A stretch of 64,000 nucleotides of DNA from Bdellovibrionales bacterium (GTDB lineage: Bacteria > Bdellovibrionota > Bdellovibrionia > Bdellovibrionales > JAUICD01). Below the pieces are notes generated by a model that had not been told where the DNA came from, made no database searches, and saw only the letters and a program-made list of their open reading frames with translations. A program made the translations under genes and the position numbers. The stretch is taken from contig OZ241865.1 of assembly GCA_965203275.1 (NCBI GenBank), positions 12,822 through 76,821 of the forward strand, given 5' to 3'. Each line of letters opens with the position of its first letter. The first letter of the stretch is position 1. Positions 39,055 to 58,560 of the stretch are shown one piece after another.

Positions 39055-39140
39055 GTCTTTTGTTTCCCTAAAATTGAAGTGGCCAGAGGTCCGTTTACTT
39101 TTAGTGAAAGAGAACCAGTGCAGTTTGAGTGAAACATTAA
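39055..39140 (-). repeat. Family-A arm and tail fragments abutting the sulfatase-family gene stop
   Basis: tttccctaaaattgaag, ggccagaggtcc, gtttacttttagtgaaa, cagtttgagtgaaacattaagg. Confidence 0.7.
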
Positions 39141-42466: not shown

Positions 42467-43675
42467 ATGCAAGGTAAACCTCAATTAAGTGTCAAATGGA
42501 TTGATCCGAAAGCTTTAGATATCATCAAACGGCTTCAAAAAAAAGGCTATCCAACATATTTTGTAGGAGGATGTGTTAGGGATTTGCTTTTAGGCATTGA
42601 ACCTAAAGACTTTGATATTGTCACATCGGCTCATCCTCGCCAAATCTGCAATATTATTCCAAACAGTCATGTGATTGGTCGACGGTTTTGTTTAGTTTTA
42701 GTCAAAAGAGGACAGGATCAATTTGAAGTGTCAACATTTCGCAGAAATGCTTCTGAAAATCAGAATAAACCTGAAGGTCAATCAAAGATAATTTTGAGAG
42801 ACAATCTCTTTGGAACACCTATTGAGGATGCAAACCGGAGAGATTTTACAATCAATGGTCTTTTTTATGATCCTTTCAAAGATCAGCTTATTGATCACTG
42901 TGATGGATTGAAGGATATTCGATCAAGAGTGATCCGTATGATTGGTGATCCTTATGTACGGATACCAGAAGATCCTATTCGTATTTTAAGATCTTTGCGT
43001 TTAGCTCATAAATTACAATTTTCCATTAATCCCATTTTGCGCAAGGCTATCTCTGCATTGTCTCAAGATATTGCTTTATCTGCTTTGCCGAGGATGCGTG
43101 AGGAGATGCTTAAAATCTTAAGGCTACAAAATCCTATATTAGCTCTTCAAGAAATTTATGATCTACAAGTGATGAAATATGCATGGCCTCAATTGCATCA
43201 AATTTTAGAATCTCAGCAATCAAGACATATTTTTTGGCATTATTTTCAATGTATTTCTGAAATGAAGCAACATGATCAAAATCAAAAAGCTTATAAAAAT
43301 TCACAAAAGGCAAGCTCTTTAGAACTTTTTGCTTTACTCACTTTGAGTTTATTTGTGGCTCAAAATATTTATGATCCTCTCAAGGTTGTTCCTGCTGGTA
43401 CTTATTTAGAGAACACAGAATTTAAGAGACCAATGAAAGAAGAATGGGGTATGTTTGGTTGGGAGATCACAGAAGTTTTAAGAGGTTTAGAAATTTTACC
43501 TTCACTGAAGGATAAATACAAAGTGTTTAAAAAGTGGCGAAAAACAAGGCAGAGAAATTTTTTAAGGCAAAAAGGTTTTGCTGTAGCACTTTATTTAGCT
43601 GCCGTAGAGCAGACAATACCTTATTGGGATATTTTGTCATGGACAAAAGCCTGTCAAAAATACTTATTAAAATAA
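42467..43675 (+). CDS. pcnB: Poly(A) polymerase I / tRNA nucleotidyltransferase family (PcnB-like)
   Basis: YFVGGCVRDLLLGIEPKDFDIVT, VIGRRFCLVLV, FEVSTFRRN, RRDFTINGLFYD. Confidence 0.8.
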   Translation: MQGKPQLSVKWIDPKALDIIKRLQKKGYPTYFVGGCVRDLLLGIEPKDFDIVTSAHPRQICNIIPNSHVIGRRFCLVLVKRGQDQFEVSTFRRNASENQNKPEGQSKIILRDNLFGTPIEDANRRDFTINGLFYDPFKDQLIDHCDGLKDIRSRVIRMIGDPYVRIPEDPIRILRSLRLAHKLQFSINPILRKAISALSQDIALSALPRMREEMLKILRLQNPILALQEIYDLQVMKYAWPQLHQILESQQSRHIFWHYFQCISEMKQHDQNQKAYKNSQKASSLELFALLTLSLFVAQNIYDPLKVVPAGTYLENTEFKRPMKEEWGMFGWEITEVLRGLEILPSLKDKYKVFKKWRKTRQRNFLRQKGFAVALYLAAVEQTIPYWDILSWTKACQKYLLK

Positions 43676-43679
43676 GCGT

Positions 43680-44085
43680 TCATTTCACTAAAAGTGGTCT
43701 AGCCTCTGTTTCCCTAAAATTGAACTAGCCTCTGGCTACTTTTGGGTAGCCAGCCCGACGACTTTCGTCGTCGATCAAAGGCTGGCTACCTCAAAAGCTT
43801 GTTCAATTTTAGGAAGAAGGATCTCCTTGTCTCTTAACACCATGTTAAGGAAACAAAATGCCTTTAAAATTATATTAAAAGAGCAATGTCTCAAAAGTCC
43901 GTTTACTTTTAGTAGGAAGAATCCTCTCGTCTCTTTACACGATGTTAAGGAAACAAATCTTTCTGATGCCTGACTGCCGGATCCCAGATCCCGGATTGGT
44001 TCACTAAAAGTAGCCAGAGGCTAGTTCAATTTTAGGGAAACAGAGGCATGGCTCATTTTGAGTGAAATGTTAAGGAAAAATTCCT
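43680..44085. repeat. Family-A repeat cluster: 1 complete unit, 1 partial unit, a heptamer tract and reversed arm fragments
   Basis: Unit at about 43715-43855 with apex cgacgac-tttc-gtcgtcg. Heptamer tract at about 43968-44000. Confidence 0.9.
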
Positions 44086-44195
44086 TCTATCAGTTTCCCT
44101 TCTTTGAATTTTTGATTTTATAACATCGTAATATCTAAAAAAACTTACTTAAGGATGTTCCTATTCGCTTTTTTTACTTAATTTTTAAAAAGTGC

Positions 44196-44224
44196 TTGAC
44201 TTTGGCCACTAAATAAGATATATT
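44196..44224 (+). promoter_or_regulatory. Candidate sigma70-type promoter upstream of the ankyrin gene
   Basis: TTGACT (44196-44201), 17-nt spacer, TATATT (44219-44224). Confidence 0.4.
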
Positions 44225-44351
44225 TACAAAAATTATCAAGGTTTATTTCTAAAACATAGAAAAAGCCCTTTTAATCAAGGCTTTAACCTTGTATGTACTT
44301 TATTGTTATTGAACTTAAAAATTTAAACCAATTTAAAAGGAGTAACAAACA

Positions 44352-45245
44352 ATGAGAAATATATTTATATTTTTATTTTTGTCCATGGTTGTATGTCAAA
44401 ATGTTGAAGGAACACAACTTTATTTTCATCGATCTGAACCTCTAAATATCCATACGGATTTAATACATGCTAGTAAAGATGGCGATATAGAGGCTGTAAG
44501 GAAATATCTAGAACAAGGTGCTAACGTCAATTATCAAAGTCATTATGGCTGGACGGCTTTAATGTGGGCTGGTAAACAAGGCCATATAGAGGTTGTAAGG
44601 GCATTACTAGAGGCCGGATCTAACGTCGATCTTCAAGATAGAGATGACGCGACGGCTTTAATGTATACTAGTACTAGAGGCCATATAGAGATTGTAAGGG
44701 CATTGCTAGCGGCCGGTGCGGACGTCAATATTCAAAGAAAAATTGGCAGGCACTATTTTGGCAATAGGACTTTAAATGGCGGTACGGCTTTAACTAATGC
44801 TAGTCGTGGATGCCATATTGAAGCTGTAAGGGCATTGCTAGCGGCCGGTGCTAAGGTCAATATGCCAGACCAAAAAGGCAAGACGGCTTTATGGTTTGCT
44901 AATAGGAATGGCTGTGTTGATATTGTAAGGACATTGCTAGAGGCCGGAGCTAACGGCGATATGGCTTTAATTTATGCTAGTCGTGAGGGATTTTTGCAGT
45001 CTGTAATGGCATTGCTAGCGGCCGGTGCGGACGTCGATCTTCAAACATCTAATGGCTATACGGCTTTAATGTATGCTAGTTTTGAAGACCATATTGAGAT
45101 TGTAAGGGCATTACTAGAGGCCGGAGCTAACGTCGATCTTGAAGACAAACTTGGATTTAGTATCTTAGACCATGAGAGAGTACTTTCAGAAGATGTGAAA
45201 AGGCTCTTAAGAGAGTCGACGTTCCAACACCCACCATTTCTTTAA
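44352..45245 (+). CDS. Secreted ankyrin-repeat protein (about 7 ANK repeats)
   Basis: Signal-like MRNIFIFLFLSMVVCQNVEG. Repeats of the form GWTALMWAGKQGHIEVVRALLEAGSNVDLQDRDD. AAGGAG RBS. Confidence 0.9.
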   Translation: MRNIFIFLFLSMVVCQNVEGTQLYFHRSEPLNIHTDLIHASKDGDIEAVRKYLEQGANVNYQSHYGWTALMWAGKQGHIEVVRALLEAGSNVDLQDRDDATALMYTSTRGHIEIVRALLAAGADVNIQRKIGRHYFGNRTLNGGTALTNASRGCHIEAVRALLAAGAKVNMPDQKGKTALWFANRNGCVDIVRTLLEAGANGDMALIYASREGFLQSVMALLAAGADVDLQTSNGYTALMYASFEDHIEIVRALLEAGANVDLEDKLGFSILDHERVLSEDVKRLLRESTFQHPPFL

Positions 45246-45891
45246 TTTCAGAAGATGTGAAAAGACTCTTAAGAGAGGCGACACAATAACTATCTATTTA
45301 ATAAGAATATACGGGCCGTAGCAATCGGCCTTTATGCTCTTTTCAAGCCGGTCTTTTTATAATTCACAAGGAAGTTTATCATCCTATTTATCTGAAAAAA
45401 GGCTATAGAACTTAAATATATAAGTAGAATTTATCAAAATTGGCAGTTTGGTGATGCTATCACGCCCCCTGGCAGGCCCTAACTATAACCCGTGCTTATA
45501 AACTACTTTAGAACATCCTGACAATTATAATTGAAGTTTATATTCGTAGGCTTGTCTTCAATCTTTGACTCAATCTTGTTTAGCTTGCAATTTGTCAGAC
45601 TCCAAAACATTAAAGGAATAAAAAAACATTTACAAACTTTCCAAACGTTCACTTTCTTTAAGAAATTCTTAGTATTTTTAAAATTCAAACTTAATCTCGA
45701 TTTATTTTCTTTACTAAAACTCAAACTCACATTCAAATTCAGCTTCAAAGTTAATTTATCTTTTCTATCTAAAATCAAAATATTCTTTACTCCTCATTAA
45801 GTAATCATTGTTAAAATGTATATTTCCCTCCGTAGGAGGTTATTTAACTCAAATTTATACACTTGTCAACAAAAAAATGAATTTTTCAAAT

Positions 45892-45916
45892 AAAAAAAAG
45901 GACCACAAGTGGTCCC
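45892..45916 (-). terminator. Rho-independent terminator candidate downstream of the 108-aa gene
   Basis: The minus strand reads gggaccacttgtggtcc followed by T8, about 50 nt after the stop at 45965. Confidence 0.5.
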
Positions 45917-45964
45917 TTCCTAGTATCATGGAAAACTTCAATTTTCATATCCACTTAAGATTGC

Positions 45965-46291
45965 TTATCTTCTCGTAAGGACGTCAATAATCTTTTCTAT
46001 ATTCCCTTTTATTTCATTAATCTCATTCTTTAATTCATTAATATCTGCCTTGAGTTCCGTCCTTACGTTTTCAATCTTTGTAGGTATATGGTTGTTTACT
46101 TGCTTTTTAATGTCTTCCATGTCTTTTTTTGTAGAAATAGCTTGTTCCTTAACAAAATCCACTTCTGCTTTGATAGGTTTATTTAGAACATTATTTATCA
46201 TAATTAAACTACCTACAACACTAAAAACGCCAATTATAAAGATACCTATAAGAATACCTATTATTGGTAGGGTTTCATATACTAATTCCAT
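45965..46291 (-). CDS. Small membrane-anchored coiled-coil protein, function unknown
   Basis: 108 aa. One TM (LPIIGILIGIFIIGVFSVVGSLIMI), then heptad-like charged helix. Followed by a terminator hairpin. Confidence 0.55.
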   Translation of the reverse strand: MELVYETLPIIGILIGIFIIGVFSVVGSLIMINNVLNKPIKAEVDFVKEQAISTKKDMEDIKKQVNNHIPTKIENVRTELKADINELKNEINEIKGNIEKIIDVLTRR

Positions 46292-46804
46292 TATTTTTAT
46301 CCTTTTTTAGTTTTTAGTTTTATTATTCATGCACCAATGTTCTTATTTGTCTTGCAAGTGGTGAGTTTAGGCATGGACTAGAATATCTATTGGTATATTT
46401 AATAAAGAAGTTGAGATTTCCAAATTCTGAGGATGTGTTGATTTAATATGCTCGACACTAGTCTGATTTATAAGACTGAAACGTCATGGAACAATTAAAG
46501 GGAAAAAATAAGTTATAAGCGTTCTCTCTAACTTATCAAACATTGATTGTTTAGTGCCATCGAATGTGACTTATCGAATGTGACTTTAGGATAAGGCCAT
46601 AGAATAAATGTCTCATTAGATAGAAAAAATACTAAAATAAACCTTATTTTCTTTTTCATACACTCACCATATATATATTCTTTTAAAAAATCAATAAAAG
46701 CTTTAACCCCCTGCATAAACTTATATTTATCTTATCATGTAGAACAAAGTATGTCAAACCATCTTGAAAATGAGGTCTTGATGAGCTTTAGCATTAAAAA
46801 AACT

Positions 46805-47095
46805 AGCCGTTTGGTTCACTCAAAATGAGCCACACCGCTGGTGTGTTTTTTGATGTTGCCTGCAAAGGCTTTCGCCTTTGACAAAATAGGCAACATCTAA
46901 AAAATCCGCTCATTTTGAGTAGAGGAGGATATCCTCATCTCTTAACTACATGTTAAGGAAAAATTTCAGTTTTAGGGCCTGATGCCAGGTTACCGGATGC
47001 CTGATCCCGGATCCCGGATGAAAATCATGTTAAGGAAATAAGCTGTTTATCACGATGGCTACTGCCGTCGATCAAAAGCTGGCTATCTCTACCCC
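46805..47095 (+). repeat. Family-A repeat: 1 complete unit, a heptamer tract and a partial apex
   Basis: Unit at about 46812-46965 (arms cactcaaaatgagc/gctcattttgag). Heptamer tract at about 46978-47028. Confidence 0.9.
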
Positions 47096-47107
47096 TTGTC
47101 AGAAAAC

Positions 47108-47758
47108 TTAAAGTAATTTCTTTAAAATTTTTAAAGATTCTACAGCACACAATCTTGGTCTATTACGACGGATGTACTCGTTATGAGTTAATCTTACTTG
47201 TGTATTACCTCTATATTCATATTTCATCATATTGTTTTCATACCGGCTTATTTTATTCTTTATAAATTCCTCCAGGGTCTTGTTGACATACCTATATTGA
47301 GTCTCATAATAATTATGATTGTCTTCTATTAAAGGTACTTGCCCTGCAAATGTATAATTATAATGATCTGCATTATAGTAATTTAATGGACCATCTAAAT
47401 TAACCCCTTGCTTGACCATATCTCTTAACAAGAGAGCTGCAATATCATACTGTCTGAGTTCAATTGCTATAACCACTAAATTTTTTGTATTAGAGTTTAC
47501 TGTAGCTCCATCTCGTAATGCAGTTTGTACACCTTGAACACTTTTATTCATAAGTGCTATAAGTAATTTTTGTTCAGGAGTTAGTAACCTAGCATCATAA
47601 AATAAAGGCAAAGGAGCAACATTAGAAGAGTCTGTAAATTCTTCGCATGAAAGACTTGCAAATCTTTCTGATACTATATCACCTAAGTATGCTCGCGATT
47701 GGGTTATAAATCCTAAACTCATAACACCCGCTATAACTAAATTGAGTAAAAATTTCAT
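47108..47758 (-). CDS. Secreted hypothetical protein with 1-2 degenerate ankyrin-like repeats
   Basis: Start at ATG 47758, 5 nt after GGAGGTG. Signal MKFLLNLVIAGVMSLGFITQSRA. LIALMNKSVQGVQTALRDGATVNS is ANK-like. Confidence 0.55.
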   Translation of the reverse strand: MKFLLNLVIAGVMSLGFITQSRAYLGDIVSERFASLSCEEFTDSSNVAPLPLFYDARLLTPEQKLLIALMNKSVQGVQTALRDGATVNSNTKNLVVIAIELRQYDIAALLLRDMVKQGVNLDGPLNYYNADHYNYTFAGQVPLIEDNHNYYETQYRYVNKTLEEFIKNKISRYENNMMKYEYRGNTQVRLTHNEYIRRNRPRLCAVESLKILKKLL

Positions 47759-48896: not shown

Positions 48897-51800
48897 ATGA
48901 GTTTAACACATCTAAGTTTTATTAGCTTGTTCGTCCTGTTAATATCTTGTACAGATGATGTTATAGATAGAAATAAAAGCTGGGGACCTGCTCGTGGTTT
49001 AGAGGTTGTAGGATTAAGTGATGATTCAAAACCTAGGAAATCAAAAACATGGCTTCTTGCTTGTCAAGACGATGGCAACTTTGTTAATTGCACTTATCGT
49101 TACAAAATCAACAAAAAATCATCACACACCTTTACAAATAAAGATCAATATAAAAAGCAAACAAAAGTGATCAAAGAGGATGGAGATGGCCGGTATTATT
49201 TACATGTTCAAGCCAAAGCAACAACGCAACTAGCAACACAAACAGCAACACAAAAAGTTTCAAGAGTTAAAAGTGTCTTTGCTACACTCGATAACACCTC
49301 CCCAACTCGCCTGAGATCTTCTCAATTTGAAGCTCCAAAGAATTCCAGTACAAATTCCTTTAAAGTGACTGTGAATAAATTAACAGCTAGGCACACTGTC
49401 AAAGTATATGTTGCTGGAGGAAGTGGTGGGACCTCTCAACTGATCAATACAAATAAGGCAAATAATAATATCTCTGAAAACACAGATATTGAAGACGATG
49501 AAGACAACAATAAAGACGACGAAGACAGCAATGACGATAACAACGACAATGACGACAACAACAACAACAATGAAGAAAATGCAAAGTTTTGTACTAAAAA
49601 CAACCAAGTGGGCTTAGGTCAAGTGGGTAGCAATAAAACTTCAGTTAAGATCACAGTTAATGCAAAACCTGGAACCCACGACTACTATGCATCTGTAACA
49701 GATAGAGCCGGTAACACTAGTGGCTGTGTGCAGGCCTTCCGCCACACAAACACAAACACGAATAACAGAGACTCTGTTGCATCTTGTCCGTCAACTCAAC
49801 CATCCCCGCACTGGCAATTTGTTAAGGGAAAATGCCGTCCATCTTGTGGTCATGCAGCCACACAGGCAGGTTATGGGGGCAGTGGAGCAGATAAAAAGGC
49901 AAATACCCAAGATGATCTCTTTACTTATGATTCTAAAGCGACTTCTTGTAAAAGTTTAAACAAATGGGGACATGATGATTGGATAGAATTTAGTTTTCAA
50001 AATGCAGGAGAGAAAATAAATAGCCGTGAATCTATTATAGTCGCAAAATATGGAGGTGTTTGTTGTGGACGAGGGACTCCTATCAATCCTGTCACTCCCC
50101 CTACTGTGACTGGTCTTGAGGATAATAATAAAGTCACTGCTCCAGCCTCTTTCAGATGGAGTTGTGATAAGAATGGCTGTCAGTATCGTTATGCTATCAC
50201 TACATCTCGCAGGCATATATTTCAAGTGGCAGCTTTTACTGGTATAAATAAAATAATAAAAAAGAGCATAAGCCCCGGAACTGTTTATTATCTTCATGTC
50301 CAAGCAGCCTTTGAGGATAGGCTCTCTGCCATTAAGACAGTCCGTTTTGCATCCCATAATTTGTCTACGGGTAAGGGTACAGGCATCCCCAGAATTGCTT
50401 TAAAAACTCCTTTAGCTAATATGAGCCATAATTATTTACATGACAAACCGACCTTTATAATAAGCTATGTTGCTCAGGGTGACAAAGTCACTTTGTATCG
50501 AAGATCCAATACAGAAAAATGCTCAGGGGCAAGTTGTTGCACCACTGCCCATAGAGGTATTAAAGTAGCTTCTAAGGTATGCCCTTCAGGAGAGTGTACT
50601 CTTTCAGCAAGCTTGCCCTCTATTAAAGACAGGTACAGGGATTCTTATAAATTCTATGTTAAAAGAGAGTATAAAAATGCACAAACACGCAATCGCTTGA
50701 CTTCTTTATGCAGTAGCCAGTCTGATTCCAGTGAGTCAAAAAATACAAAAAATACACAAAATACAACTACTAAGAAGTTTGTTATTTATAATCGTTGGGT
50801 TTATAAGCCTCTTTCTATGGCTGAGCAATATGGGTGCTTTTTATCTAAGACAGGTCAGATCAAATGCTGGGGTCCTGACGCTTTTAGTGGAGTCAATCAG
50901 TGCTTACCACCTGGAGGTCAGTTTGAAGATACAAATCGTATTGCTACTTTTGATCCTGAAAAATTCTCACAAAATGTTGATTTAGGGTGCAGGGATGGTT
51001 CTAAATCATGTGCATCACATGAAAAATACACTGCACTAGCTTTATCTGTCTCTGGTTTAAAACATAAACCTTTTAGTTTTTGTAAAGTTTGTTCTAATAA
51101 TAATTGTGTTCGCGGACAGCACCCTTATTGTGATGTGGGTAGAACCAATGACAGACATACAGATGGTCGCAGTCTTCCTATCACAAAACATATTTGTGCT
51201 ATCTTAGATGATCAAAAGATCAAATGTTGGGGGCAAAATAATTTTGGTCAATTAGGTCAGGGTGTTGCAGGTAGCGGTTTTGTGAGTGCTTCAAATCTAA
51301 GGCCTATCAACTTAGGGAGTGGCTTAAAAGCAAAAGCTATCGTCACAGGGCTTTATCATAGCTGTGTGATTTTAGAAGATGCAAACAATAAACATGATGA
51401 TCAGGTCAAATGCTGGGGGTACAATCAAGATGGTCAGTTAGGGCAAGGGCATAAATGTCATTTAGGTATGACAGGTGCGAATTATCCTATAAGTCATTCT
51501 TGCAATTCTACCAATGCTGTTATTGATCGTGATGTGAAAGATACACCTCCTATCAACTTAAGTGTAGGAAATATCAAATTAACTGTAAAAGCTATTTCAG
51601 CAAAAGCAGCCCATACCTGTGCTGTTGTAGATCATAAAAACGGCAACCTTCATGATAATAAGGTGAAATGTTGGGGTTACAATGGTCATAAGCAATATGG
51701 TGATTATGCCAATAACCATATAGGTGATGCTACGGGTGAATTAAATGCTAGCAGTAGCAGTGGTGATGGTTATTTCTTTCATAATGGGATAAAGGTAAAG

Positions 51801-52253
51801 GCTCTTTCTGCGGGGTTATATGATACCTGTGTGATCCGAGATGATTCAAATGACGATACAATTATTTGTCGAGGAAGGGGCTTATATACTGGTATAGATG
51901 CAAGCCATGCTGTCAATCGTGGCATCCGCATATTTGGTAGCCGTCCTCACGAGATTAGCTTTACTTTTAATAAAAAACCTCTATCCATTGCGGTAGGAGA
52001 ATATATTGGTTGTGCAACCTTAAATGATGGAACAGTCAATTGCTTTGGCAATCATAATTTTGGTGATGCAAGTGTTTTTGGAGATTTAGGGATCAATCAT
52101 TTAAACTCTCAAAAAGTGATCCATTTTGATACAGGATCGTCAAGCCATTGTGCTTATTTAAGTAATGGCAGAGTCAAATGTTGGGGGAAAATGCTAACTG
52201 CATCTTCAGAAAACACTCCTTCTCGTCCATATATTTGTTCTCGTAATCGTTGA
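48897..52253 (+). CDS. Surface lipoprotein: Ig-like modules, poly-D/N tract, Cys-rich module, C-terminal 7-bladed RCC1-like propeller
   Basis: Lipobox LLISC. Modules ending YYLHVQAK...VKSV. D/N tract DIEDDEDNNKDDEDSNDDNNDNDDNNNNNEEN. Seven blades marked by [IV]KCWG.N..GQLG (e.g. KIKCWGQNNFGQLGQG, QVKCWGYNQDGQLGQG). Confidence 0.85.
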   Translation: MSLTHLSFISLFVLLISCTDDVIDRNKSWGPARGLEVVGLSDDSKPRKSKTWLLACQDDGNFVNCTYRYKINKKSSHTFTNKDQYKKQTKVIKEDGDGRYYLHVQAKATTQLATQTATQKVSRVKSVFATLDNTSPTRLRSSQFEAPKNSSTNSFKVTVNKLTARHTVKVYVAGGSGGTSQLINTNKANNNISENTDIEDDEDNNKDDEDSNDDNNDNDDNNNNNEENAKFCTKNNQVGLGQVGSNKTSVKITVNAKPGTHDYYASVTDRAGNTSGCVQAFRHTNTNTNNRDSVASCPSTQPSPHWQFVKGKCRPSCGHAATQAGYGGSGADKKANTQDDLFTYDSKATSCKSLNKWGHDDWIEFSFQNAGEKINSRESIIVAKYGGVCCGRGTPINPVTPPTVTGLEDNNKVTAPASFRWSCDKNGCQYRYAITTSRRHIFQVAAFTGINKIIKKSISPGTVYYLHVQAAFEDRLSAIKTVRFASHNLSTGKGTGIPRIALKTPLANMSHNYLHDKPTFIISYVAQGDKVTLYRRSNTEKCSGASCCTTAHRGIKVASKVCPSGECTLSASLPSIKDRYRDSYKFYVKREYKNAQTRNRLTSLCSSQSDSSESKNTKNTQNTTTKKFVIYNRWVYKPLSMAEQYGCFLSKTGQIKCWGPDAFSGVNQCLPPGGQFEDTNRIATFDPEKFSQNVDLGCRDGSKSCASHEKYTALALSVSGLKHKPFSFCKVCSNNNCVRGQHPYCDVGRTNDRHTDGRSLPITKHICAILDDQKIKCWGQNNFGQLGQGVAGSGFVSASNLRPINLGSGLKAKAIVTGLYHSCVILEDANNKHDDQVKCWGYNQDGQLGQGHKCHLGMTGANYPISHSCNSTNAVIDRDVKDTPPINLSVGNIKLTVKAISAKAAHTCAVVDHKNGNLHDNKVKCWGYNGHKQYGDYANNHIGDATGELNASSSSGDGYFFHNGIKVKALSAGLYDTCVIRDDSNDDTIICRGRGLYTGIDASHAVNRGIRIFGSRPHEISFTFNKKPLSIAVGEYIGCATLNDGTVNCFGNHNFGDASVFGDLGINHLNSQKVIHFDTGSSSHCAYLSNGRVKCWGKMLTASSENTPSRPYICSRNR

Positions 52254-52429: not shown

Positions 52430-55400
52430 ATGATGAATTATCAGTTTCGTTTTATTTATTGTGCAGTTTTACTATCATTGTCTTTCTTTTTGATGTCTTG
52501 CAATAAGGATGAAAGGAGAAACCCAGCTGGACTACCTACGACTTCGCCCACTCCTTCTAAATCCGCATCCCCTACTCCTTCTGCGTCCCCATCTCCTACT
52601 CCTTTTGTAGAGACGGCATGTCCGTCTATTAAGCCACCTCACTGGAAATTTGTCAAAGGAAAATGTCGTCCGTCATGTGGATATGCAGCATCTCAGGCGG
52701 GTTATGGAGGTTCTGGTTCGGATAAAAAATCAGGGACATCTGATGATCCTCATATTTTTACTTCTAAGGCATCTTCTTGTGGTAGGTTAAATGTTTTAGG
52801 ACATAATGATTGGCGGGAGTTTGAATTTAAAGATGCAGGTAAGACCATTACCAGTAACGATGCTCATGAAGTAGCTAATAAGAAAGGTAGTGTATGTTGC
52901 GGGCGTGGCAGTGCTAAAAATCCTATACCTCCTCCTGAGGTGACAGGTTTATCGAATGATAATACAGAGAGGTTATCGAAGCAATTCAGTTGGGGATGTC
53001 AGCGCAATAACAAGACAGAGAATTGTAAATATCGCTCTATCATAAACACATTTTCTAAGCATACATTTCGTTCAAGTGTTTCTTATACGAATAAAAAAAC
53101 AGTTACACAATCATCTGTCAGCAAGAAGACAACTTATTATTTGCATGTTCAAGCAGCCTTTGGTAGGAGGGAGTCTGCTGTCAAATCAGTAAGTTTTAAA
53201 TTAAAACCAAGGCCTACACCTCGGCCTAGCCCTATTTTACCTACGCCAAAGGTAACAGGGTTAGAAAGCGATACATCACCTGCAAGATCGAAAAGCTGGG
53301 AGTGGAGCTGTAGTACAGAGGGAACATATCCTTGTGAATATCGCCATGTAATTAATCAACGTGCTACACACAAGTTTGATAGCAAGGCAACTTATTCTTC
53401 AAAGAATACAGCAAGTACAAGTGGCAAAAGTGATGGTCGCTGGTATTTACATGTTCAGGCTAAGAATGCAGGTGCTATTTCAGCAGTCAAGTCTGTTTTT
53501 GTGAGGATAGATAGAACAAAACCAAAGACTCCCAATAAAAACTCTATGATCTATGATGCTTCTAATACCCATCAGATCACAGTGACATTTAGAGATTTTG
53601 TGCAAGGAGAGCGTGTTCGTTTATATAATGTATCGAATTGCAAGAGTAGCTCTTTGGGAGTTGCCACAGTGGGAGATAATGGTGAAGGTGTGATCACCTT
53701 TACAGCAGATTCAACGCTTCAAAATTATTATGCTCAGGTCACAGATCAGGCAGGCAATGTCAGTGGCTGTGGACTTATATTTGCTTATCCTGTAACAGGG
53801 ACTGCTATTTTGCCAGAAGTTACAGGTCTCACAAATGATGACACACCTCAAAGAATTAAAAGATGGAGATGGGGTTGTAGTACCCAGCAGTGTGAATATC
53901 GCTATGTGATTAACCAACGTGCTAGACACACATTTAGAAGTGGAGATAATTATCGTATAAATGATGAGGCTTCCACAGGTACAAGCCATGCTACTGGCAA
54001 ATGGTATGTCCATGTACAGGCTAAAAATGCAGCTGGAGAATCAGGAGTGAAATCTGTATATGCAAGGATAGACAGAACTCCGCCTAGGGTACCTAGTGCA
54101 GATTCAACAGTGTATCAAGTGGATGATGATGATGATGAGATCATTATTACTTTTTCAGACCTTGAAGCTGGGGATAGGGTGCAGGTTTATACAATGAGCA
54201 ATGGCCGACAGGGTACTCTTAAAGGCACAGCTACAGTAGCCAGTAGCCAGACATCTGTCAATGTAGAGATCACCCCTGAGTCAACTGAAACTGATTATTG
54301 TGCAAGGGTAACTGACAGGGCTAAAAATACCAGCACTTGTGGGTTTATATTGACTTACCCTGTTTTAAATCCACGACTTGTTTTAAAAACTCCCGTGCCG
54401 AACACATTGAACAACTACTTACATGATAGACCAGAGTTTACTGTGGAAAAAGCAAGGAATAGTAAAGTTTATCTTTATAGGGTCAATGGTGATGATGAAG
54501 ATATATGTAGTGGGGAGAATTGCTGTAATCCGGCTAGGGATAGTGATGTCGTGCTTGTAGGTCAGACCAGTGGTAACTGTGCTGCAAGTGCATGTACAGT
54601 TAAGGTGGCAGCAAATAAAAAATTAGCTTATCCTGGTAACTATGAGATAGATAAAAAATCTTATACATTCTTTGTCAGAAAAGAATATCAAGGTGCAAAT
54701 AATGCTTTGCAAAGCAAATGCTCTCGATTAGAAAATGACAACGAAGGCTCCGCTGAAGCAAAAAAACAAAAAGCTGTTTATCATTTATGGCCTTATAAGG
54801 CATTATCTGTAGGTCATAAGAATAGGGCTTGTTATTTGTCTAAATTAGGTGAAGTGAAATGTTGGGGAGAGCAAAAGGAAAATACACCTTCGTATTTTCA
54901 GCAGTGCTTACCTTCTGGAGGGGAGTTTGAAGAAGCAGCTATTGCAGGAAACGGTGATGTGTTTGCAGCTTTTAATCCTATGGAATTTGCTAACTCTGTC
55001 AATTTAGGTTGTAGAAGTGGTAGCGGTTCAAATTGTCCAAAATATACAGCCCTTGCAGTTTCCCTTAGTTATGCTGGAGGCTTTAGTGATGAGTATCATA
55101 CTTGTGCTATTTTAGATAATCAAAAAGTCAAATGTTGGGGGAAGAATTCTAAAGGCCAATTAGGGCAAGGCAGTAGTGTTGACGCAGATGGCAATAATGA
55201 TCCCTCTACCCTCGCACCACTTAAGTTAAAAAAGGTAAAGGCTATTTCAGCAGGTGGTCTAGCTCATAGTTGTGTGATTTTAGATACCCCTAGTGATAGT
55301 GGCAATGATGAGAGAGTGAAATGTTGGGGAAATAATGATGATGGGCAATTAGGGATAAATAGTACAATTAAAATAGGAGATGATGAAGCATTAGATCACG

Positions 55401-56134
55401 CACGAGCCATCACTGTTCCTGGCTTAGATGGTAATAGGGTCAAAGCTATTTCAGCAGGTCATAATCACACCTGTGCAATTCTGAAAGCTAGCACACATAA
55501 TGGAAAAGTTATATGCTGGGGAGAGAATGATGATAAACAATTAGGTACAAACAATAACGTGAATTATGGCAACGGTGGTAACGATGCGAATGTGGCCAAT
55601 GCCTCCCCTTTTGATCATTTCGGCGACCCCGCTCGTACTACAAAAGCCAAATATGTTGCAACAGGATATGCCCGTACATGTATTATTGAAGATACTCCTG
55701 ATTCAAAAGTGATCTGTATATCAGCAGAACGTCGTTTTAATGCTTTTGAGCGTGATACTGGTTTTGAATCTAATCCTGTAGTTGACTTTTCAAACTCAGA
55801 CACTGATGAAAGACAAGTTTTTAAGTATACAAGTGATAATTCTAAAAAAGCAACAAGAATATATCCTATGGATTATAGTATTTGTGCTTTATTAGATAGC
55901 GGTGAAGTCAACTGTGATCAGAGCGGTACTCAGGTTTGGGGACATCATTTGAATGCAGATTTATATTCTGGGATATTAGGTAGTAACAAAGTTCAATCTA
56001 TGGATGTAGGAGGCGATGATATGTGTGCTTATTTAGATAATGGTCAAGTCAAATGCTGGGGTCGTGAAGATAATAATGATAATGATGATGATAGACCTCT
56101 TATGTGCGAGCATGACGCTCCAACCTCAACATAA
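52430..56134 (+). CDS. Surface lipoprotein paralog: P/S/T linker, Cys-rich module, about 4 Ig-like modules, C-terminal 7-bladed RCC1-like propeller
   Basis: Lipobox FLMSC. The same Cys-rich module as the upstream gene. Repeated VTGL..D....W.W.C....CEYR.VINQRA.H.F...WYLHVQAKNA...VKSV..RIDRT.P units. Blades such as KVKCWGKNSKGQLGQG and RVKCWGNNDDGQLG. Confidence 0.85.
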   Translation: MMNYQFRFIYCAVLLSLSFFLMSCNKDERRNPAGLPTTSPTPSKSASPTPSASPSPTPFVETACPSIKPPHWKFVKGKCRPSCGYAASQAGYGGSGSDKKSGTSDDPHIFTSKASSCGRLNVLGHNDWREFEFKDAGKTITSNDAHEVANKKGSVCCGRGSAKNPIPPPEVTGLSNDNTERLSKQFSWGCQRNNKTENCKYRSIINTFSKHTFRSSVSYTNKKTVTQSSVSKKTTYYLHVQAAFGRRESAVKSVSFKLKPRPTPRPSPILPTPKVTGLESDTSPARSKSWEWSCSTEGTYPCEYRHVINQRATHKFDSKATYSSKNTASTSGKSDGRWYLHVQAKNAGAISAVKSVFVRIDRTKPKTPNKNSMIYDASNTHQITVTFRDFVQGERVRLYNVSNCKSSSLGVATVGDNGEGVITFTADSTLQNYYAQVTDQAGNVSGCGLIFAYPVTGTAILPEVTGLTNDDTPQRIKRWRWGCSTQQCEYRYVINQRARHTFRSGDNYRINDEASTGTSHATGKWYVHVQAKNAAGESGVKSVYARIDRTPPRVPSADSTVYQVDDDDDEIIITFSDLEAGDRVQVYTMSNGRQGTLKGTATVASSQTSVNVEITPESTETDYCARVTDRAKNTSTCGFILTYPVLNPRLVLKTPVPNTLNNYLHDRPEFTVEKARNSKVYLYRVNGDDEDICSGENCCNPARDSDVVLVGQTSGNCAASACTVKVAANKKLAYPGNYEIDKKSYTFFVRKEYQGANNALQSKCSRLENDNEGSAEAKKQKAVYHLWPYKALSVGHKNRACYLSKLGEVKCWGEQKENTPSYFQQCLPSGGEFEEAAIAGNGDVFAAFNPMEFANSVNLGCRSGSGSNCPKYTALAVSLSYAGGFSDEYHTCAILDNQKVKCWGKNSKGQLGQGSSVDADGNNDPSTLAPLKLKKVKAISAGGLAHSCVILDTPSDSGNDERVKCWGNNDDGQLGINSTIKIGDDEALDHARAITVPGLDGNRVKAISAGHNHTCAILKASTHNGKVICWGENDDKQLGTNNNVNYGNGGNDANVANASPFDHFGDPARTTKAKYVATGYARTCIIEDTPDSKVICISAERRFNAFERDTGFESNPVVDFSNSDTDERQVFKYTSDNSKKATRIYPMDYSICALLDSGEVNCDQSGTQVWGHHLNADLYSGILGSNKVQSMDVGGDDMCAYLDNGQVKCWGREDNNDNDDDRPLMCEHDAPTST

Positions 56135-56194: not shown

Positions 56195-56810
56195 CTTTTC
56201 CACAAACATCCGGCAATCGGGGCAACGCATCAGATCCTGGGATGCCTGCTTGCCGGATCCCAGATAAATACCTTGTTAAGGAAACAGAGTTTCTTTTTTT
56301 TTCACTAAAAGTGGTCAAGCTTTCTAGGCAATGACCATTTTGCCAATGGCAAAAAAACATCTTGTTTCCTTAACATGTAGTCAAAAAACGAAGAGATCCT
56401 CCTTACTCAAAGTGAACAGGCTTTTGAGACGATGACCATTTTGTCAAAGGCGAAAGCCTTTGCGGTCATCGTCCAAAAGTGGCCAGAGGCCAGTTCACTT
56501 TGAGGGAAACAGAGGCTAGTTTACTTTTAGTGCAAATCAAATGAGGTGATGACCATTTTATCGACGTGAAATAAACATCTTGTTTCCCTAACATCGTCTT
56601 CATCCGGGATCCGGGATCCGGCAGTCAGGCAGTCCGGCATCAGTGAAGCAAACGTCTTGTTTCCTTAACATGGTGTTAAAAAACGAGGATATCCTCCCCT
56701 ACTCAAAATGAGCAGTTTTTTGCGGCATTGCTCTTTTTAGACAGCGTAAGCTGTCAGAGCAATGCCCAAAAACACACCAGAGGTGTGGCTCATTTTGAGT
56801 GAGACAGAAT
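56195..56810 (-). repeat. Family-A repeat cluster: 2 complete (-) units, partial units and 2 heptamer tracts
   Basis: Units at about 56362-56508 and 56655-56803. Heptamer tracts at about 56205-56268 and 56603-56640. Confidence 0.9.
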
Positions 56811-56820
56811 CTAATGATGT

Positions 56821-57940
56821 TTAAGTCTTTGTTATTTTGAGGATCTCTTCTTGAGAAAGTCCAGAACATTTCATAATAGTTTGTAAGTCTATTTTATTTT
56901 TGATCATATTTAAAATAAGATCTCTTTGCCCTTCCTGTCGCCCTTCCTGTCGCCCTTTTTGCAACCCTTCTTGTAAGCCCTTTTGCAATCCTTCCTGTCG
57001 CCCTTCTTGCAGGCCTTTTTGTCGGGCATGATTTTGAATAATCTCACTAAATTTTAACATAACATCTCCTTGCCTTTGTTTTATTTCTTCCCCTACTTCT
57101 TCCATTGTTTTGATTAAAAGCTTTTCTGCCATGTTTCCATCGTATGTGCAGAAATACCTTACCAAATCATTTGTCATCTCTATTATATCTAACTTATCAC
57201 CACTTTCATAGTCCTTTTCATTAATAATATCATCTTTTTGTAATCTACCCACTTCTCTTTCGACAATTAAAATATTTTCCCTTATTTGTTTCACTAAAAG
57301 TAAACTAGCCTCTGGCTACTTTTGGGCATTGCTCTGACAGCTGTCGCTGTCCAAAAAGAGCAATGCCTCAAAAGTTCGTTTACTTTTAGTAAAGAGGATC
57401 TCCTTGCTTCTTAACACCATGTTAAGGAAAAAGAGTTTCATTTGTAAACCCGCTTGCTCTTGAGGTAATAAAAAAACTTTTTCCTTAACATGCTGTAAAG
57501 GAATAAAAGGATCCTCTCTACTCAAAATGAACAAGCTTTTGAGGTAGCTAGCCTTTTACGACGGCGGTAGCCGTCGGGCTAGCTACCCAAAAGTGGCCAG
57601 AGGCCAGTTCATTTTGAGTGAAAGAATAAAACAAGAATGAACGGATTGTACTTTGATGCTCTATGTTGAAAACAAGCTTTACAATCAAGTGAGAATTCTT
57701 CAATTTAACCGCAACAACTAGGTCACAAAGACCTTTCATATATCCAGAAAACTCTCCTTTTTCTATTGTGAGCGTTTTTAAATCTATGATGTTTAAGAGT
57801 TTCGAAGGCAATGTGATTTCAAGAAAGGCCATCGCAATAATTTTTTTTGAAAAAAGCCGTTGAAAAGCAATGTTATGAGGATGGGCTTTTGAAGAAGTGT
57901 CCTGTTGCATTTGTTTGATCTGCTTTGATTTTGATGGCAT
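56821..57940 (-). pseudogene. Rpn/YhgA-like PD-(D/E)XK nuclease (transposase-like) gene interrupted by a family-A inverted dimer
   Basis: The N-fragment (57940-57623) reads HPHNIAFQRLF...AMAFLEITLPSKLL...CDLVVAVKL...VFNIEHQST. The C-fragment (57288-56821) ends with QKGLQEGRQEGLQKGLQEGLQKGRQEGRQEGQRDLILNMIKNKIDLQTIMKCSGLSQEEILKI, the family-typical tail. The fragments are separated by 334 bp of repeat. Confidence 0.65.
57289..57622. mobile_element. Family-A inverted dimer (MITE-like, 334 bp) inserted in the rpn-like gene
   Basis: (+) unit at 57289-57435, connector at 57436-57485, (-) unit at 57486-57622. Termini tttcactaaaagt... and ...attttgagtgaa are inverted repeats. Deleting exactly 57289-57622 joins ...FLFYS to QIRENILIVE... 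in frame. Confidence 0.7.
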
Positions 57941-58055
57941 GACTGCTCCTTATTGTTCCTTTAGGTTCACTTGAAATTGCATGTCTCTTATTAACTACAT
58001 GAATTTTAAAACTATATCTTTGTTTGTTCTCGACTGCAAGCAAGAACATTCGGTT

Positions 58056-58560
58056 TGTTTCATTAAAAGTGGGCTGTTTCACTAAAAGTGGGCTGTTTCA
58101 CTAAAAGTGGGCTGTTTCACTCAAAATGAGCCACACCTCTGGTGTGTTTTTTGGTGTTGCCTGCAAAGGCTTTCGCCTTTGACAAAATAGGCAACACCTA
58201 AAAAATCCGCTCATTTTGAGTAGGGAAGGATCTCCTTGCTTTTAACACAATGTTAAGGAAACAAGATATTCGCTTCATCCTTGCCTGTCTGCTTGATGCC
58301 GGGTTGCCGGATCCCGGATCCCGGATAAACACGATGTTAAGGAAACAAGCTATTTATATTTATTTCACTCCCGGGATCCGGGATCAGGCAATCTGACATC
58401 CCGGGATCCCGGAACTGATGCCGGGTTGCCGGATCCCGGATCCCGGATAAACAGGATGTTAAGGAAACAAGATTTCCTTCTGATGTTTGCTCTGACAGCT
58501 ATCGCTGTCTAAAAAGAGCAATGTCGCAAAAAACTGCTCATTTTGAGTGAAAAAGAATAA
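58056..58560. repeat. Family-A repeat cluster: 3.5 tandem 19-bp left arms, 1 complete unit, head-to-head heptamer arrays and 1 partial unit
   Basis: Tandem arms at 58056-58112. Unit at about 58113-58265. Heptamer tracts at 58286-58326 and 58371-58448 (two orientations meeting head to head). Partial unit at 58480-58555. Confidence 0.9.

What the first reader, a model, noticed from the sequence alone, without database searches (positions are those of the whole stretch)
56821..57940. Family-A inverted dimer interrupts an Rpn/YhgA-like nuclease gene; precise removal restores the frame
The minus-strand ORF 57940-57623 encodes the N-terminal PD-(D/E)XK part of an Rpn/YhgA-like protein (…AFQRLF…AMAFLEITLPSKLL…CDLVVAVKL…VFNIEHQSTIRSFLFYS). 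It then runs into the arm ttcactcaaaatgaac. The ORF 57288-56821 encodes the family-typical C-terminus (…QKGLQEGRQEGLQKG…LSQEEILKITKT). By codon bookkeeping, the last native codon of the N-fragment ends at 57623 (tct, Ser) and the first native codon of the C-fragment starts at 57288 (caa, Gln). Deleting exactly 57289-57622 (334 bp, termini TTTCACT…AGTGAA) gives a continuous 261-aa ORF, …FLFYS-QIRENILIVE…. I see no target-site duplication. This is direct evidence that the dimer is a discrete insertion, that is, mobile DNA. It also shows the element can insert without duplicating its target, as HUH/Y1-type systems do. That last point is inference only. The host gene is somewhat shorter than typical Rpn proteins, so additional decay is possible.
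Basis: partly seen in the sequence, partly recalled or inferred. Interest (0 to 1): 0.65.

Follow-up and report, generated by a model that had tools for sequence, protein, structure and literature searches.

The report
Repeat-replaced Rpn toxin gene remnant
An Rpn-type nuclease (toxin) gene in a sponge-associated Bdellovibrio-like bacterium has had 109 codons of its core replaced by a pair of very abundant palindromic repeats, so it is an ordinary dead gene and not a clean insertion site, although its small antitoxin-like tail still looks intact and conserved.

Summary
The arithmetic is right. Two minus-strand ORFs, 57940-57623 and 57288-56821, are the N- and C-terminal parts of an Rpn/YhgA-like gene. 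They flank a 334-nt tail-to-tail dimer of a ~145-nt palindromic repeat, and deleting that dimer gives an in-frame 261-aa ORF.

That ORF is not the gene. Two intact homologues (339 and 345 aa) have exactly 109 residues between the two fragments. Single-copy-depth contigs in three public runs join the same N and C parts (93-98% identical) through 328 nt where the window has 344. Their first and last 30 nt read HKLFKYQSFL and KTEAEKKSF, the native continuation. So about 327 bp of gene were lost where the dimer sits. The frame match is a 1-in-3 accident, and the locus says nothing about target-site duplication or HUH-type insertion.

The repeat family is real: 33 full units in 64 kb, on the order of 1000 per genome, all extragenic, with strongly covarying stems. 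The dimer is copied as a unit, as REPINs are. No transposase was identified.

The gene remnant keeps an intact 79-aa RpnS-like ORF with its own ribosome-binding site. The C fragment shows purifying selection, whereas the N fragment's substitutions do not differ from neutral expectation. Interest is low to moderate.

The parts
57629..57940 (-). Native N-terminal fragment of the rpn-like gene, codons 1-104. It carries the PD-(D/E)XK motif residues D73, E94 and Q96 (GLCDLVV...NIEHQS). The present ORF continues 26 more codons (2 junction codons, then 24 repeat-encoded) and stops at 57548.
   Evidence: PF04754 positions 2-82 of 203, E 4e-10. Similarity to the intact allele ends at 57629. The catalytic residues of RpnA are D63, E82 and Q84 (PMC5350276).
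57285..57628 (.). The 344-nt foreign segment that stands where the intact allele has 328 nt (109 codons plus 1 nt) of coding sequence. It consists of 6 junction nt (tattct), the 334-nt dimer, and caaa.
   Evidence: Joint 57284->57629 with 328 letters between, in single-copy-depth contigs of runs X2, X3 and X4. The end letters of that stretch translate to native Rpn sequence.
57477..57621 (-). Family-A unit 1, ~145 nt. The body is a branched hairpin closed by the unit's 13-nt terminal inverted repeat, followed by a tail ...GGATCC...CATGTTAAGGAAA.
   Evidence: nhmmer 136.6 bits; alignment; fold.
57434..57476 (.). Spacer between the two tails of the dimer. It is homologous to the spacers of the dimer at 23294-23635 and of the copy in the relative L001, apart from a 14-nt deletion.
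57291..57433 (+). Family-A unit 2, inverted relative to unit 1 (tail to tail). Its long inner hairpin belongs to a different subfamily.
   Evidence: nhmmer 113.4 bits.
56821..57284 (-). Native C-terminal fragment of the rpn-like gene (IRENILIVERE...LKITKT, plus stop). It is currently callable as a 157-aa ORF from the GTG at 57294.
   Evidence: The same repeat|gene junction is present in relative L007. Against L007 there are 12 synonymous and 6 nonsynonymous differences.
56821..57071 (-). RpnS-like internal gene. Shine-Dalgarno AAGGAG lies at 57071-57066 and the ATG at 57060. It encodes 79 aa (MLKFSEIIQNHARQKGLQEG...), and the 4-aa repeats begin 12 residues after the Met.
   Evidence: SD plus ATG conserved in L007, L003 and L002. 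RpnS features come from PMC10400941. There is a weak match to RpnA-S chain 7TH0.
56930..57022 (-). 12-nt (4-aa) repeat tract, (G/R)(L/R)Q(E/K)G... The window has one repeat fewer than relative L007.
   Evidence: (family D2).
56268..56833 (.). Cluster of family-A units and fragments downstream of the gene remnant.
58056..58556 (.). Cluster of family-A units upstream of the gene remnant. It includes four tandem 19-nt copies of the element's 5' end (58056-58131).

Best explanation
The locus is a dead rpn (recombination-promoting nuclease, YhgA-like) toxin-antitoxin gene in an uncultured, sponge-associated Bdellovibrionales-like bacterium.

Shown: 109 codons (about 327 bp) encoding the second half of the nuclease domain are absent. 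A 344-nt segment stands in their place, made of one tail-to-tail dimer of the family-A palindromic repeat plus a few junction bases. The event is old, because both junctions are shared with relatives.

Shown: family A is a very abundant extragenic repeat with strongly covarying hairpins, and its dimer is copied as a unit, spacer included.

Inferred: the dimer landed in, or next to, this part of the gene, and the flanking coding DNA was lost through an element-associated deletion. Long palindromes are known to provoke hairpin cleavage and slipped or microhomology-mediated repair. One related contig shows the same C fragment cut back a further 75 bp to another family-A end. The frame continuity after removing 334 nt is incidental.

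Inferred, with some support: the nuclease (toxin) half now drifts neutrally. The C-terminal part still encodes a functional RpnS-type small protein, meaning the intragenic antitoxin and oligomerisation domain. It keeps its own ribosome-binding site and start codon and has evolved under purifying selection since the disruption.
For: - **Missing codons.** Intact homologues P0003 (339 aa, 64% identity) and P0005 (345 aa, 56%) both have 109 residues between the two window fragments.
- **Intact allele in public runs.** Contigs of 786, 925 and 654 nt in runs X4, X3 and X2 have flat single-copy depth (66, 15, 61), whereas repeat pieces reach thousands. They join 57629-57942 (4-13 differences) to ...57284 (9-10 differences) through 328 letters, which is 109 codons plus 1 nt and is in frame.
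- **Native sequence at both ends of those 328 letters.** The 30 letters next to Phe104 read CAT AAG CTT TTT AAA TAC CAA TCT TTT CTT = HKLFKYQSFL, compared with QKLFKYQAFL and QKLFKYQSLL in the homologues. The 30 letters before the C part read KTEAEKKSF-L, compared with KTEQEKQEF-I.
- **Shared junctions.** L007 has the same unit-2|C-fragment junction. L001 and a contig of run X1 have the N-fragment|unit-1 junction at the same codon.
- **Repeat family.** There are 33 full units and 92 nhmmer hits in 64 kb. The end motif occurs 32 times against 0 expected. All clusters lie between ORFs. Depth ratios near 1000 in X4 agree with extrapolation from the window.
- **Structure.** 27 of 49 base pairs show compensatory changes, and the fold z-score is -17. 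Dimers are homologous through the spacer.
- **Distribution.** The family is also present in MAG OZ253553.1 'Bdellovibrionales bacterium'.
- **Further erosion.** An X4 contig is identical to the window over 57141-57213 and then runs into a family-A end.
- **RpnS.** AAGGAG-N5-ATG lies 12 residues before the 4-aa repeats and is conserved in L007, L003 and L002, matching the published RpnS layout (PMC10400941).
- **Selection.** C fragment versus L007: 12 synonymous to 6 nonsynonymous changes, P = 1.2e-5 against neutrality. N fragment versus L001: 6 to 11, not different from neutral. Against the intact allele the window's N part has 8 nonsynonymous to 2 synonymous changes and the C part 2 to 6 (Fisher P = 0.054).
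Against: - Only 60 of the 328 letters of the intact allele could be read. The rest rests on its length and its depth.
- The genomic position of the intact allele is unknown, because the contigs end in repeats. It may be a paralogue or belong to a co-resident strain rather than being the ancestral state of this exact locus.
- The order of events is not resolved. It could be insertion then deletion, two insertions then loss of the interval, or one replacement event. No clear microhomology was seen at the junctions.
- Substitution patterns among the N-fragment alleles are mosaic, so recombination between rpn copies has occurred and complicates the selection tests.
- The purifying-selection argument assumes that the junction shared with L007 reflects a single ancestral event.
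- No expression data were available.
Confidence: 0.72

Rival explanations
1. The 334-nt dimer is a simple, discrete insertion into an otherwise complete gene, made without target duplication (HUH/Y1 style). Exact excision would restore the gene.
For: Removing 57289-57622 gives a continuous 261-aa ORF, and no direct repeat flanks the dimer. Dimers behave as copied units elsewhere.
Against: 109 codons present in both intact homologues and in the near-identical intact allele are missing. The fused ORF covers only about the first 100 of the 203 positions of PF04754. An in-frame result has a 1/3 prior. No Y1/HUH gene was found among the 33 window ORFs of 150 aa or more that were scanned.
Confidence: 0.03
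2. The N and C fragments were never neighbours in one gene copy. Recombination between dispersed family-A copies brought together the 5' part of one rpn paralogue and the 3' part of another.
For: In relative L001 the same N fragment with unit 1 lies in a different neighbourhood (mnmE / yidC / dnaA) and is followed by unrelated DNA. Gene order around pyrG is not conserved among relatives. Several rpn fragments and alleles coexist in the runs, with mosaic substitution patterns.
Against: The segment between the fragments is a single coherent dimer. Its unit 1, spacer and unit 2 are collinear with an independent dimer at 23294-23635 and with the L001 copy up to the middle of unit 2. Both fragments lie at a similar distance (2-7%) from one intact allele that contains both. 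The missing interval is exactly the 109 codons that lie between them.
Confidence: 0.15
3. Two family-A units inserted independently, in opposite orientation, at two sites about 330 bp apart in the gene. The interval between them was then lost, which created the dimer in situ.
For: The two units belong to different hairpin subfamilies. The length removed (328 nt) is close to the length present (344 nt). Family-A modules are visibly reshuffled elsewhere, as partial units, 19-nt tandem ends and mini-elements.
Against: The spacer between the tails is homologous to the spacer of other dimers rather than to rpn sequence. This argues that the dimer arrived ready-made. Recombination between inverted copies inverts DNA rather than deleting it.
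Confidence: 0.08
4. Assembly artefact: the juxtaposition was produced by mis-joining across repeats.
For: The region is saturated with near-identical repeats, and short-read unitigs break inside them.
Against: Both junctions are seen independently. Contig L007 and an X1 contig identical over 56928-57314 show the C side. L001 and an X1 contig show the N side. The window's proteins map to a 2.58-Mb single contig.
Confidence: 0.02

Closest known systems
Rpn (YhgA-like, PF04754/TIGR01784) toxin with intragenic antitoxin RpnS (Kingston 2017, PMC5350276; Zhong 2023, PMC10400941)
   Same: N-terminal PD-(D/E)XK motif D...E-x-Q. C-terminal helical domain with variable 4-aa repeats. An internal SD plus ATG 12 residues before the repeats. 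The repeat number differs between close relatives. Multiple copies and fragments are present in the population.
   Different: The nuclease domain is truncated: 109 codons are replaced by repeats. This subfamily has Asn where RpnA has the essential D11 (HPHN(I/N)AF). The function of the surviving small ORF is inferred and has not been tested.
REPINs (REP doublets forming hairpins) mobilised by RAYT transposases (Bertels & Rainey 2011, PMC3116915)
   Same: An extragenic palindromic unit present at roughly 1000 copies. Inverted doublets with a spacer that fold into long hairpins and are conserved and copied as a unit. Singlets, fragments and higher-order clusters also occur.
   Different: The unit is ~145 nt with a three-branch structure plus a conserved tail, against 20-60 nt for REPs. 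No RAYT/Y1 gene was found in the DNA available. Activity (excision or new insertion) was not observed.
Bacterial MITEs and structured repeats of 100-150 bp (Correia/NEMIS, ERIC, RUP, Rickettsia palindromic elements; from my own knowledge)
   Same: Similar size, terminal inverted repeats, strong secondary structure, high copy number, and occasional location inside genes.
   Different: No target-site duplication could be assessed. The one DDE insertion sequence in the window has unrelated ends. Unlike RPEs, the element is not read through in frame. It ends the ORF and replaces coding sequence.
IS200/IS605-type (HUH/Y1) elements and their palindrome-associated derivatives (from my own knowledge; cited within PMC3116915 and PMC6006769)
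   Same: Hairpin-rich ends. Insertion without target duplication would fit the absence of flanking direct repeats.
   Different: Nothing at this locus tests the mechanism, because the target is deleted. No TnpA/RAYT was found in the window.

Membership tests
Rpn / YhgA-like (PF04754, TIGR01784) | N-terminal PD-(D/E)XK core with the D...E-x-Q(K) motif | tested here: met
   PF04754 E 4e-10 over profile positions 2-82. D73, E94 and Q96 correspond to RpnA D63, E82 and Q84.
Rpn / YhgA-like (PF04754, TIGR01784) | Complete transposase_31 domain (~200 residues) | tested here: not met
   Only positions 2-82 (fused ORF: 2-100) of 203 are matched. 109 residues present in P0003, P0005 and the intact allele are absent. 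The locus is therefore a pseudogene of the family.
Rpn / YhgA-like (PF04754, TIGR01784) | C-terminal Rpn domain with variable 4-aa repeats | tested here: met
   TIGR01784 positions 192-273, whole-protein E 8.6e-13 (48.7 bits, just under the 52.1 cutoff). 7TH0 RpnA C-terminal chain, E 0.37. Precomputed PF27070 HTH_Rpn_C on P0001. A 12-nt repeat tract, with a one-repeat difference from L007.
RpnS intragenic antitoxin | Internal translation start 8-20 residues before the 4-aa repeats | tested here: met
   AAGGAG-N5-ATG at 57071-57058, 12 residues before the repeats. The same arrangement is present in L007, L003 and L002. The criterion comes from PMC10400941. This is sequence-level evidence only.
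RpnS intragenic antitoxin | The small protein is made and blocks the cognate long protein | not testable with these tools
   No RNA or ribosome data were found. Purifying selection on the C fragment is indirect support.
REPIN-RAYT system | Extragenic palindromic unit at high copy number | tested here: met
REPIN-RAYT system | An inverted doublet with spacer is the conserved, replicated unit | tested here: met
   Whole dimers including the spacer align at 23294-23635, at 10410-10743 and in L001.
REPIN-RAYT system | REP unit of about 20-60 nt with a single imperfect palindrome | tested here: not met
   The unit is ~145 nt, with a three-branch body of ~106 nt plus a ~40-nt tail.
REPIN-RAYT system | A cognate single-copy RAYT (Y1 transposase) gene flanked by the repeats | tested here: inconclusive
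   None of the 33 window ORFs of 150 aa or more that were scanned matches a Y1/HUH family. However, the window is only 2.5% of the genome, and no genome-wide search was possible.
MITE | Target-site duplication and terminal inverted repeats matching a parent IS | tested here: inconclusive
   The 13-nt terminal inverted repeats are present. No filled/empty pair was recovered. The only DDE IS in the window has unrelated 37-nt inverted repeats.
IS200/IS605-like insertion (no TSD, fixed target motif) | A precise empty site lacking duplication, next to a conserved target tetra- or pentanucleotide | tested here: not met
   At this locus there is no precise empty site, because 328 nt of target are gone. 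Other loci gave no empty sites.

The most novel reading that the evidence does not exclude
Family A is an undescribed REPIN-like replicator with an unusually large, three-branched unit. It is maintained at about 1000 copies in a clade of sponge-associated Bdellovibrionales. Its copies repeatedly decapitate rpn toxin genes: three different breakpoints next to family-A ends were seen in related rpn C fragments. This leaves orphan RpnS antitoxins that are kept by selection, for example as protection against incoming or co-resident Rpn toxins. The repeats would then reshape a defence or addiction system rather than simply littering it.
Probability: 0.12. Interest if true: 0.55.

Novelty: new member of a known kind. 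Interest (0 to 1): 0.3.

Why it matters
The practical lesson concerns method. An in-frame junction after removing a repeat is not evidence of a clean insertion, and here comparison with an intact allele overturns that reading.

Biologically the locus is an ordinary pseudogene. It does point to two things that may deserve a look. The first is a very abundant, strongly structured, apparently undescribed repeat family (about 6-9% of a 2.6-Mb symbiont genome) whose mobilising enzyme is unknown. The second is a natural case in which the toxin half of an Rpn gene-within-a-gene system has been destroyed while the antitoxin half stays under selection. That bears on how such intragenic toxin-antitoxin pairs decay.

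Tried and rejected
- **GTDB genomes, protein profile.** A scan with a profile of the gene found no relative. The window's species is therefore not in that collection, and no intact paralogue could be fetched that way.
- **JGI metagenomes.** A scan for the NIEHQS-coding stretch gave two chance hits in unrelated contigs, L008 and L009.
- **Synteny around pyrG.** I looked for an orthologous empty site in three relatives, L004, L005 and L006. Gene order is not conserved there, and a 260-aa ORF at the equivalent position in L004 is unrelated.
- **Reading all 328 letters of the intact allele.** The read-laying tool prints at most 30 letters per loose end. Searches did not show them, and searches gave 30 at each end.
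- **Filled/empty polymorphisms of family-A copies.** At 43300-47400 and 22800-23900 I saw only repeat-to-repeat joints and no clean empty site.
- **Rfam.** No family matches anywhere in the window.
- **Parent IS.** The DDE_Tnp_1 insertion sequence at 37580-38928 has unrelated ends.
- **RNA runs.** None could be identified for the locus.
- **Microhomology at the breakpoints.** The native sequence TTGTTTCAT at the N breakpoint resembles the usual element end TTGTTTCACT. However, the actual junction (TTGTTT-tattct-TTCACT) is not a microhomology join, so I did not build on this.

Full report
**Observation.** On the minus strand an ORF starts at 57940. Its 106th codon (tct) ends at 57623, and the sequence then enters TTCACTCAAAATGAAC... 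A second frame has caa at 57288 and stops at 56821. Removing 57289-57622 (334 nt) joins them into a 261-codon ORF. As it stands, the first ORF reads 24 repeat-encoded codons and stops at 57548. The N part matches Pfam PF04754 (Transposase_31, YhgA-like) at E 4e-10, but only over profile positions 2-82 of 203. The C part matches the end of TIGR01784, the Rpn family model (positions 192-273; whole-protein E 8.6e-13, 48.7 bits against a curated cutoff of 52.1). It also matches, weakly, the crystallised RpnA C-terminal chain 7TH0. The description and the gene identity are therefore correct.

**The fused ORF is not the gene.** A search of the large protein collection returned two intact homologues, P0003 (339 aa, 64% identity) and P0005 (345 aa, 56%). 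In alignment, both have exactly 109 residues between the window's ...IRSFLF and IRENILIVERE.... These residues make up the second half of the nuclease domain.

**An intact, near-identical allele exists in public runs.** Public sequencing runs that hold this DNA come from sponge metagenomes and from coded host organisms. I laid their contigs on the locus. In runs X4, X3 and X2, contigs of 786, 925 and 654 nt match 57629-57942 (4-13 differences) and ...57284 (9-10 differences). Between the two parts they carry 328 letters, where the window has 344. These contigs have flat single-copy depth (66, 15, 61). Every piece of the repeat has depths in the thousands and breaks the assembly. The 328 letters are therefore unique sequence. 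328 equals 109 codons plus 1 nt, which is exactly what keeps Phe104 and the following Ile/Leu codon in phase.

**The ends of the 328 letters are native Rpn sequence.** The 30 letters adjoining Phe104 translate to HKLFKYQSFL; P0003 has QKLFKYQAFL and P0005 has QKLFKYQSLL. The 30 letters before the C part translate to KTEAEKKSF followed by L-R-E-N; P0003 has KTEQEKQEF followed by I-K-E-G. The intact allele therefore carries the native middle of the gene. The window has lost about 327 bp precisely where the repeat dimer sits. The frame continuity follows from a deletion of whole codons plus 9 leftover junction bases. It has a 1/3 prior and used boundaries chosen after the fact. Because the target is gone, the locus cannot say whether a target duplication was made.

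**Age and context.** The junctions are shared with relatives. The 733-bp contig L007 (94% aa identity) has the same unit-2|C-fragment junction and the same downstream element. Contig L001 (33.9 kb) and a contig of run X1 have the N fragment ending at the same codon against the same unit 1, with a 6-nt difference at the joint. In L001 the N fragment lies between mnmE and yidC/dnaA and is not followed by the C fragment. Gene order around pyrG also differs among relatives. Rearrangement at repeats is therefore common in this clade. That keeps open a minority rival in which the two fragments were brought together by recombination. Against that rival, the DNA between the fragments is one coherent dimer. 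It is collinear, spacer included, with the dimer at 23294-23635 and with the L001 copy.

**The repeat family.** Iterated nhmmer finds 92 hits and 33 full-length ~145-nt units in the 64-kb window. A 26-nt end motif occurs 32 times against 0 expected. All clusters lie between ORFs. Depth ratios in run X4 (about 60,000 against about 60) and extrapolation from the window both suggest on the order of 1000 copies per 2.58-Mb genome.

Each unit has a ~106-nt body, closed by pairing of its 13-nt ends, that contains a short hairpin around CCTCTGG and a long hairpin with an apical stem. A conserved tail follows (GGAGGATCC...CTTAACAnnATGTTAAGGAAA). Of 49 predicted pairs, 27 show compensatory changes across 38 copies. 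The dimer folds at -104 kcal/mol with a z-score of -17. There is no Rfam match.

The family also occurs in relatives L001 and L004 and in MAG OZ253553.1, 'Bdellovibrionales bacterium'. The window's pyrG is 80-88% identical to that of these relatives and 62-70% identical to named Bdellovibrionales/Bdellovibrionota MAGs.

Tail-to-tail dimers recur and are homologous through the spacer. This resembles REPINs (PMC3116915), but the unit is far larger, and no Y1/RAYT gene is present among the 33 window ORFs scanned. The single DDE insertion sequence in the window has unrelated ends. Two attempts to catch filled/empty polymorphisms failed. Mobility is thus inferred from copy number, unit-wise copying and differences between strains. 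It was not observed directly.

**What remains of the gene.** Rpn proteins are toxic PD-(D/E)XK endonucleases. Their variable C-terminal domain is also translated separately, from an internal start, as the antitoxin RpnS. Four-residue repeats begin 8-20 residues after that start (PMC10400941). The catalytic residues of RpnA are D63, E82 and Q84 (PMC5350276).

The window's C fragment has AAGGAG-N5-ATG at 57071-57058, 12 residues before its repeat tract, giving an intact 79-aa ORF. The same SD plus ATG is conserved in L007, P0003 and P0005. The window and L007 differ by one 4-aa repeat.

Since the shared disruption, the C fragment has accumulated 12 synonymous and 6 nonsynonymous differences from L007 (P = 1.2e-5 against neutrality). 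The N fragment shows 6 synonymous and 11 nonsynonymous differences from L001, which is not different from neutral. Relative to the intact allele, the window's N part carries 8 nonsynonymous and 2 synonymous changes and the C part 2 and 6 (Fisher P = 0.054). I therefore propose that the toxin half is dead and drifting while an RpnS-like product is retained. This is inference. The tests are small and are complicated by mosaicism among alleles.

**How the deletion arose.** This is not resolved. A contig in run X4 is identical to the window over 57141-57213 and then runs into another family-A end. A more diverged C fragment in X2 and X3 is cut near 57188. Coding DNA next to these palindromes thus appears to be lost repeatedly. 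This fits established knowledge that long palindromes provoke hairpin cleavage and imprecise repair. A ready-made dimer inserting and then causing an adjacent deletion is my preferred sequence of events. Two independent insertions followed by loss of the interval is less likely, because the spacer is family-typical.

**Verdict.** The key interpretation, a clean insertion with precise restoration that supports a no-duplication HUH mechanism, is not supported. The locus is an ordinary repeat-disrupted rpn pseudogene in a repeat-saturated symbiont genome, with a plausibly surviving antitoxin ORF. The repeat family itself seems undescribed but belongs to a known kind (REP/REPIN/MITE-like).

Noticed in passing
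window 58056-58131: Four head-to-tail 19-nt copies of the family-A 5' end (TGTTTCACTAAAAGTGGGC) lead into a full unit. In addition, a 26-nt 5' fragment ending in the hairpin loop (...CTAGCCTCTG) sits directly before a full unit at four or more sites (27334, 32130, 41825, 43684). This suggests nested insertion or slippage at that loop.
   Followed up: partly
window 56233-56288, 56604-56641, 58294-58349, 58371-58408, 58416-58471; L001 11740-11930: A second, GC-rich repeat (CCGGGATCCGGGATCC... motifs) shares the family-A tail ATGTTAAGGAAAC but has a different body.
   Followed up: no
runs X2-X4 laid on window 57141-57288: Other rpn C-terminal fragments are cut by family-A ends at different positions: after 57213 in a contig otherwise identical to the window, and near 57188 in a more diverged copy. 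Several N-fragment alleles coexist in one sample.
   Followed up: partly
window 57865-57888 (HPHNIAFQ); P0003, P0005: This Rpn subfamily has Asn (HPHN(I/N)AF) where E. coli RpnA has D11. Mutating D11 to Ala abolished all RpnA phenotypes. The more distant homologue P0006 keeps Asp.
   Followed up: no
window 14139-16175: A 678-aa ORF built from many short HTH_Tnp_1 / MerR-like helix-turn-helix matches, with no catalytic domain detected.
   Followed up: no
window 37580-38928: A complete-looking insertion sequence: a DDE_Tnp_1 transposase (37685-38812) flanked by 37-nt inverted repeats that are unrelated to the family-A ends.
   Followed up: yes
window 39060-39110: A mini-element of about 48 nt, made of two family-A 5' ends in inverted orientation around one CCAGAGG hairpin loop.
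   Followed up: partly
window 1552-2967, 44352-45245, 48897-52253, 52430-56134: Eukaryote-like repeat proteins (mTERF, ankyrin, two large RCC1-repeat proteins, plus several TPR proteins) lie beside housekeeping genes. This fits a host-associated lifestyle, and the DNA is found in sponge metagenomes.
   Followed up: partly
L001 10001-16815: In a relative, the same rpn N fragment with its repeat lies between mnmE and the yidC-yidD / dnaA-dnaN-recF genes that typically flank a replication origin. This is a different neighbourhood from the window's (RCC1 gene / pyrG).
   Followed up: partly
L005 (2.10-Mb relative, 17.7 kb sampled) versus L010-L017 (OZ253553.1): Family A was not detected in the region sampled from the relative whose pyrG is 83% identical. 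It is frequent in the relative at 80%. The distribution may be patchy, but the sample is small.
   Followed up: no
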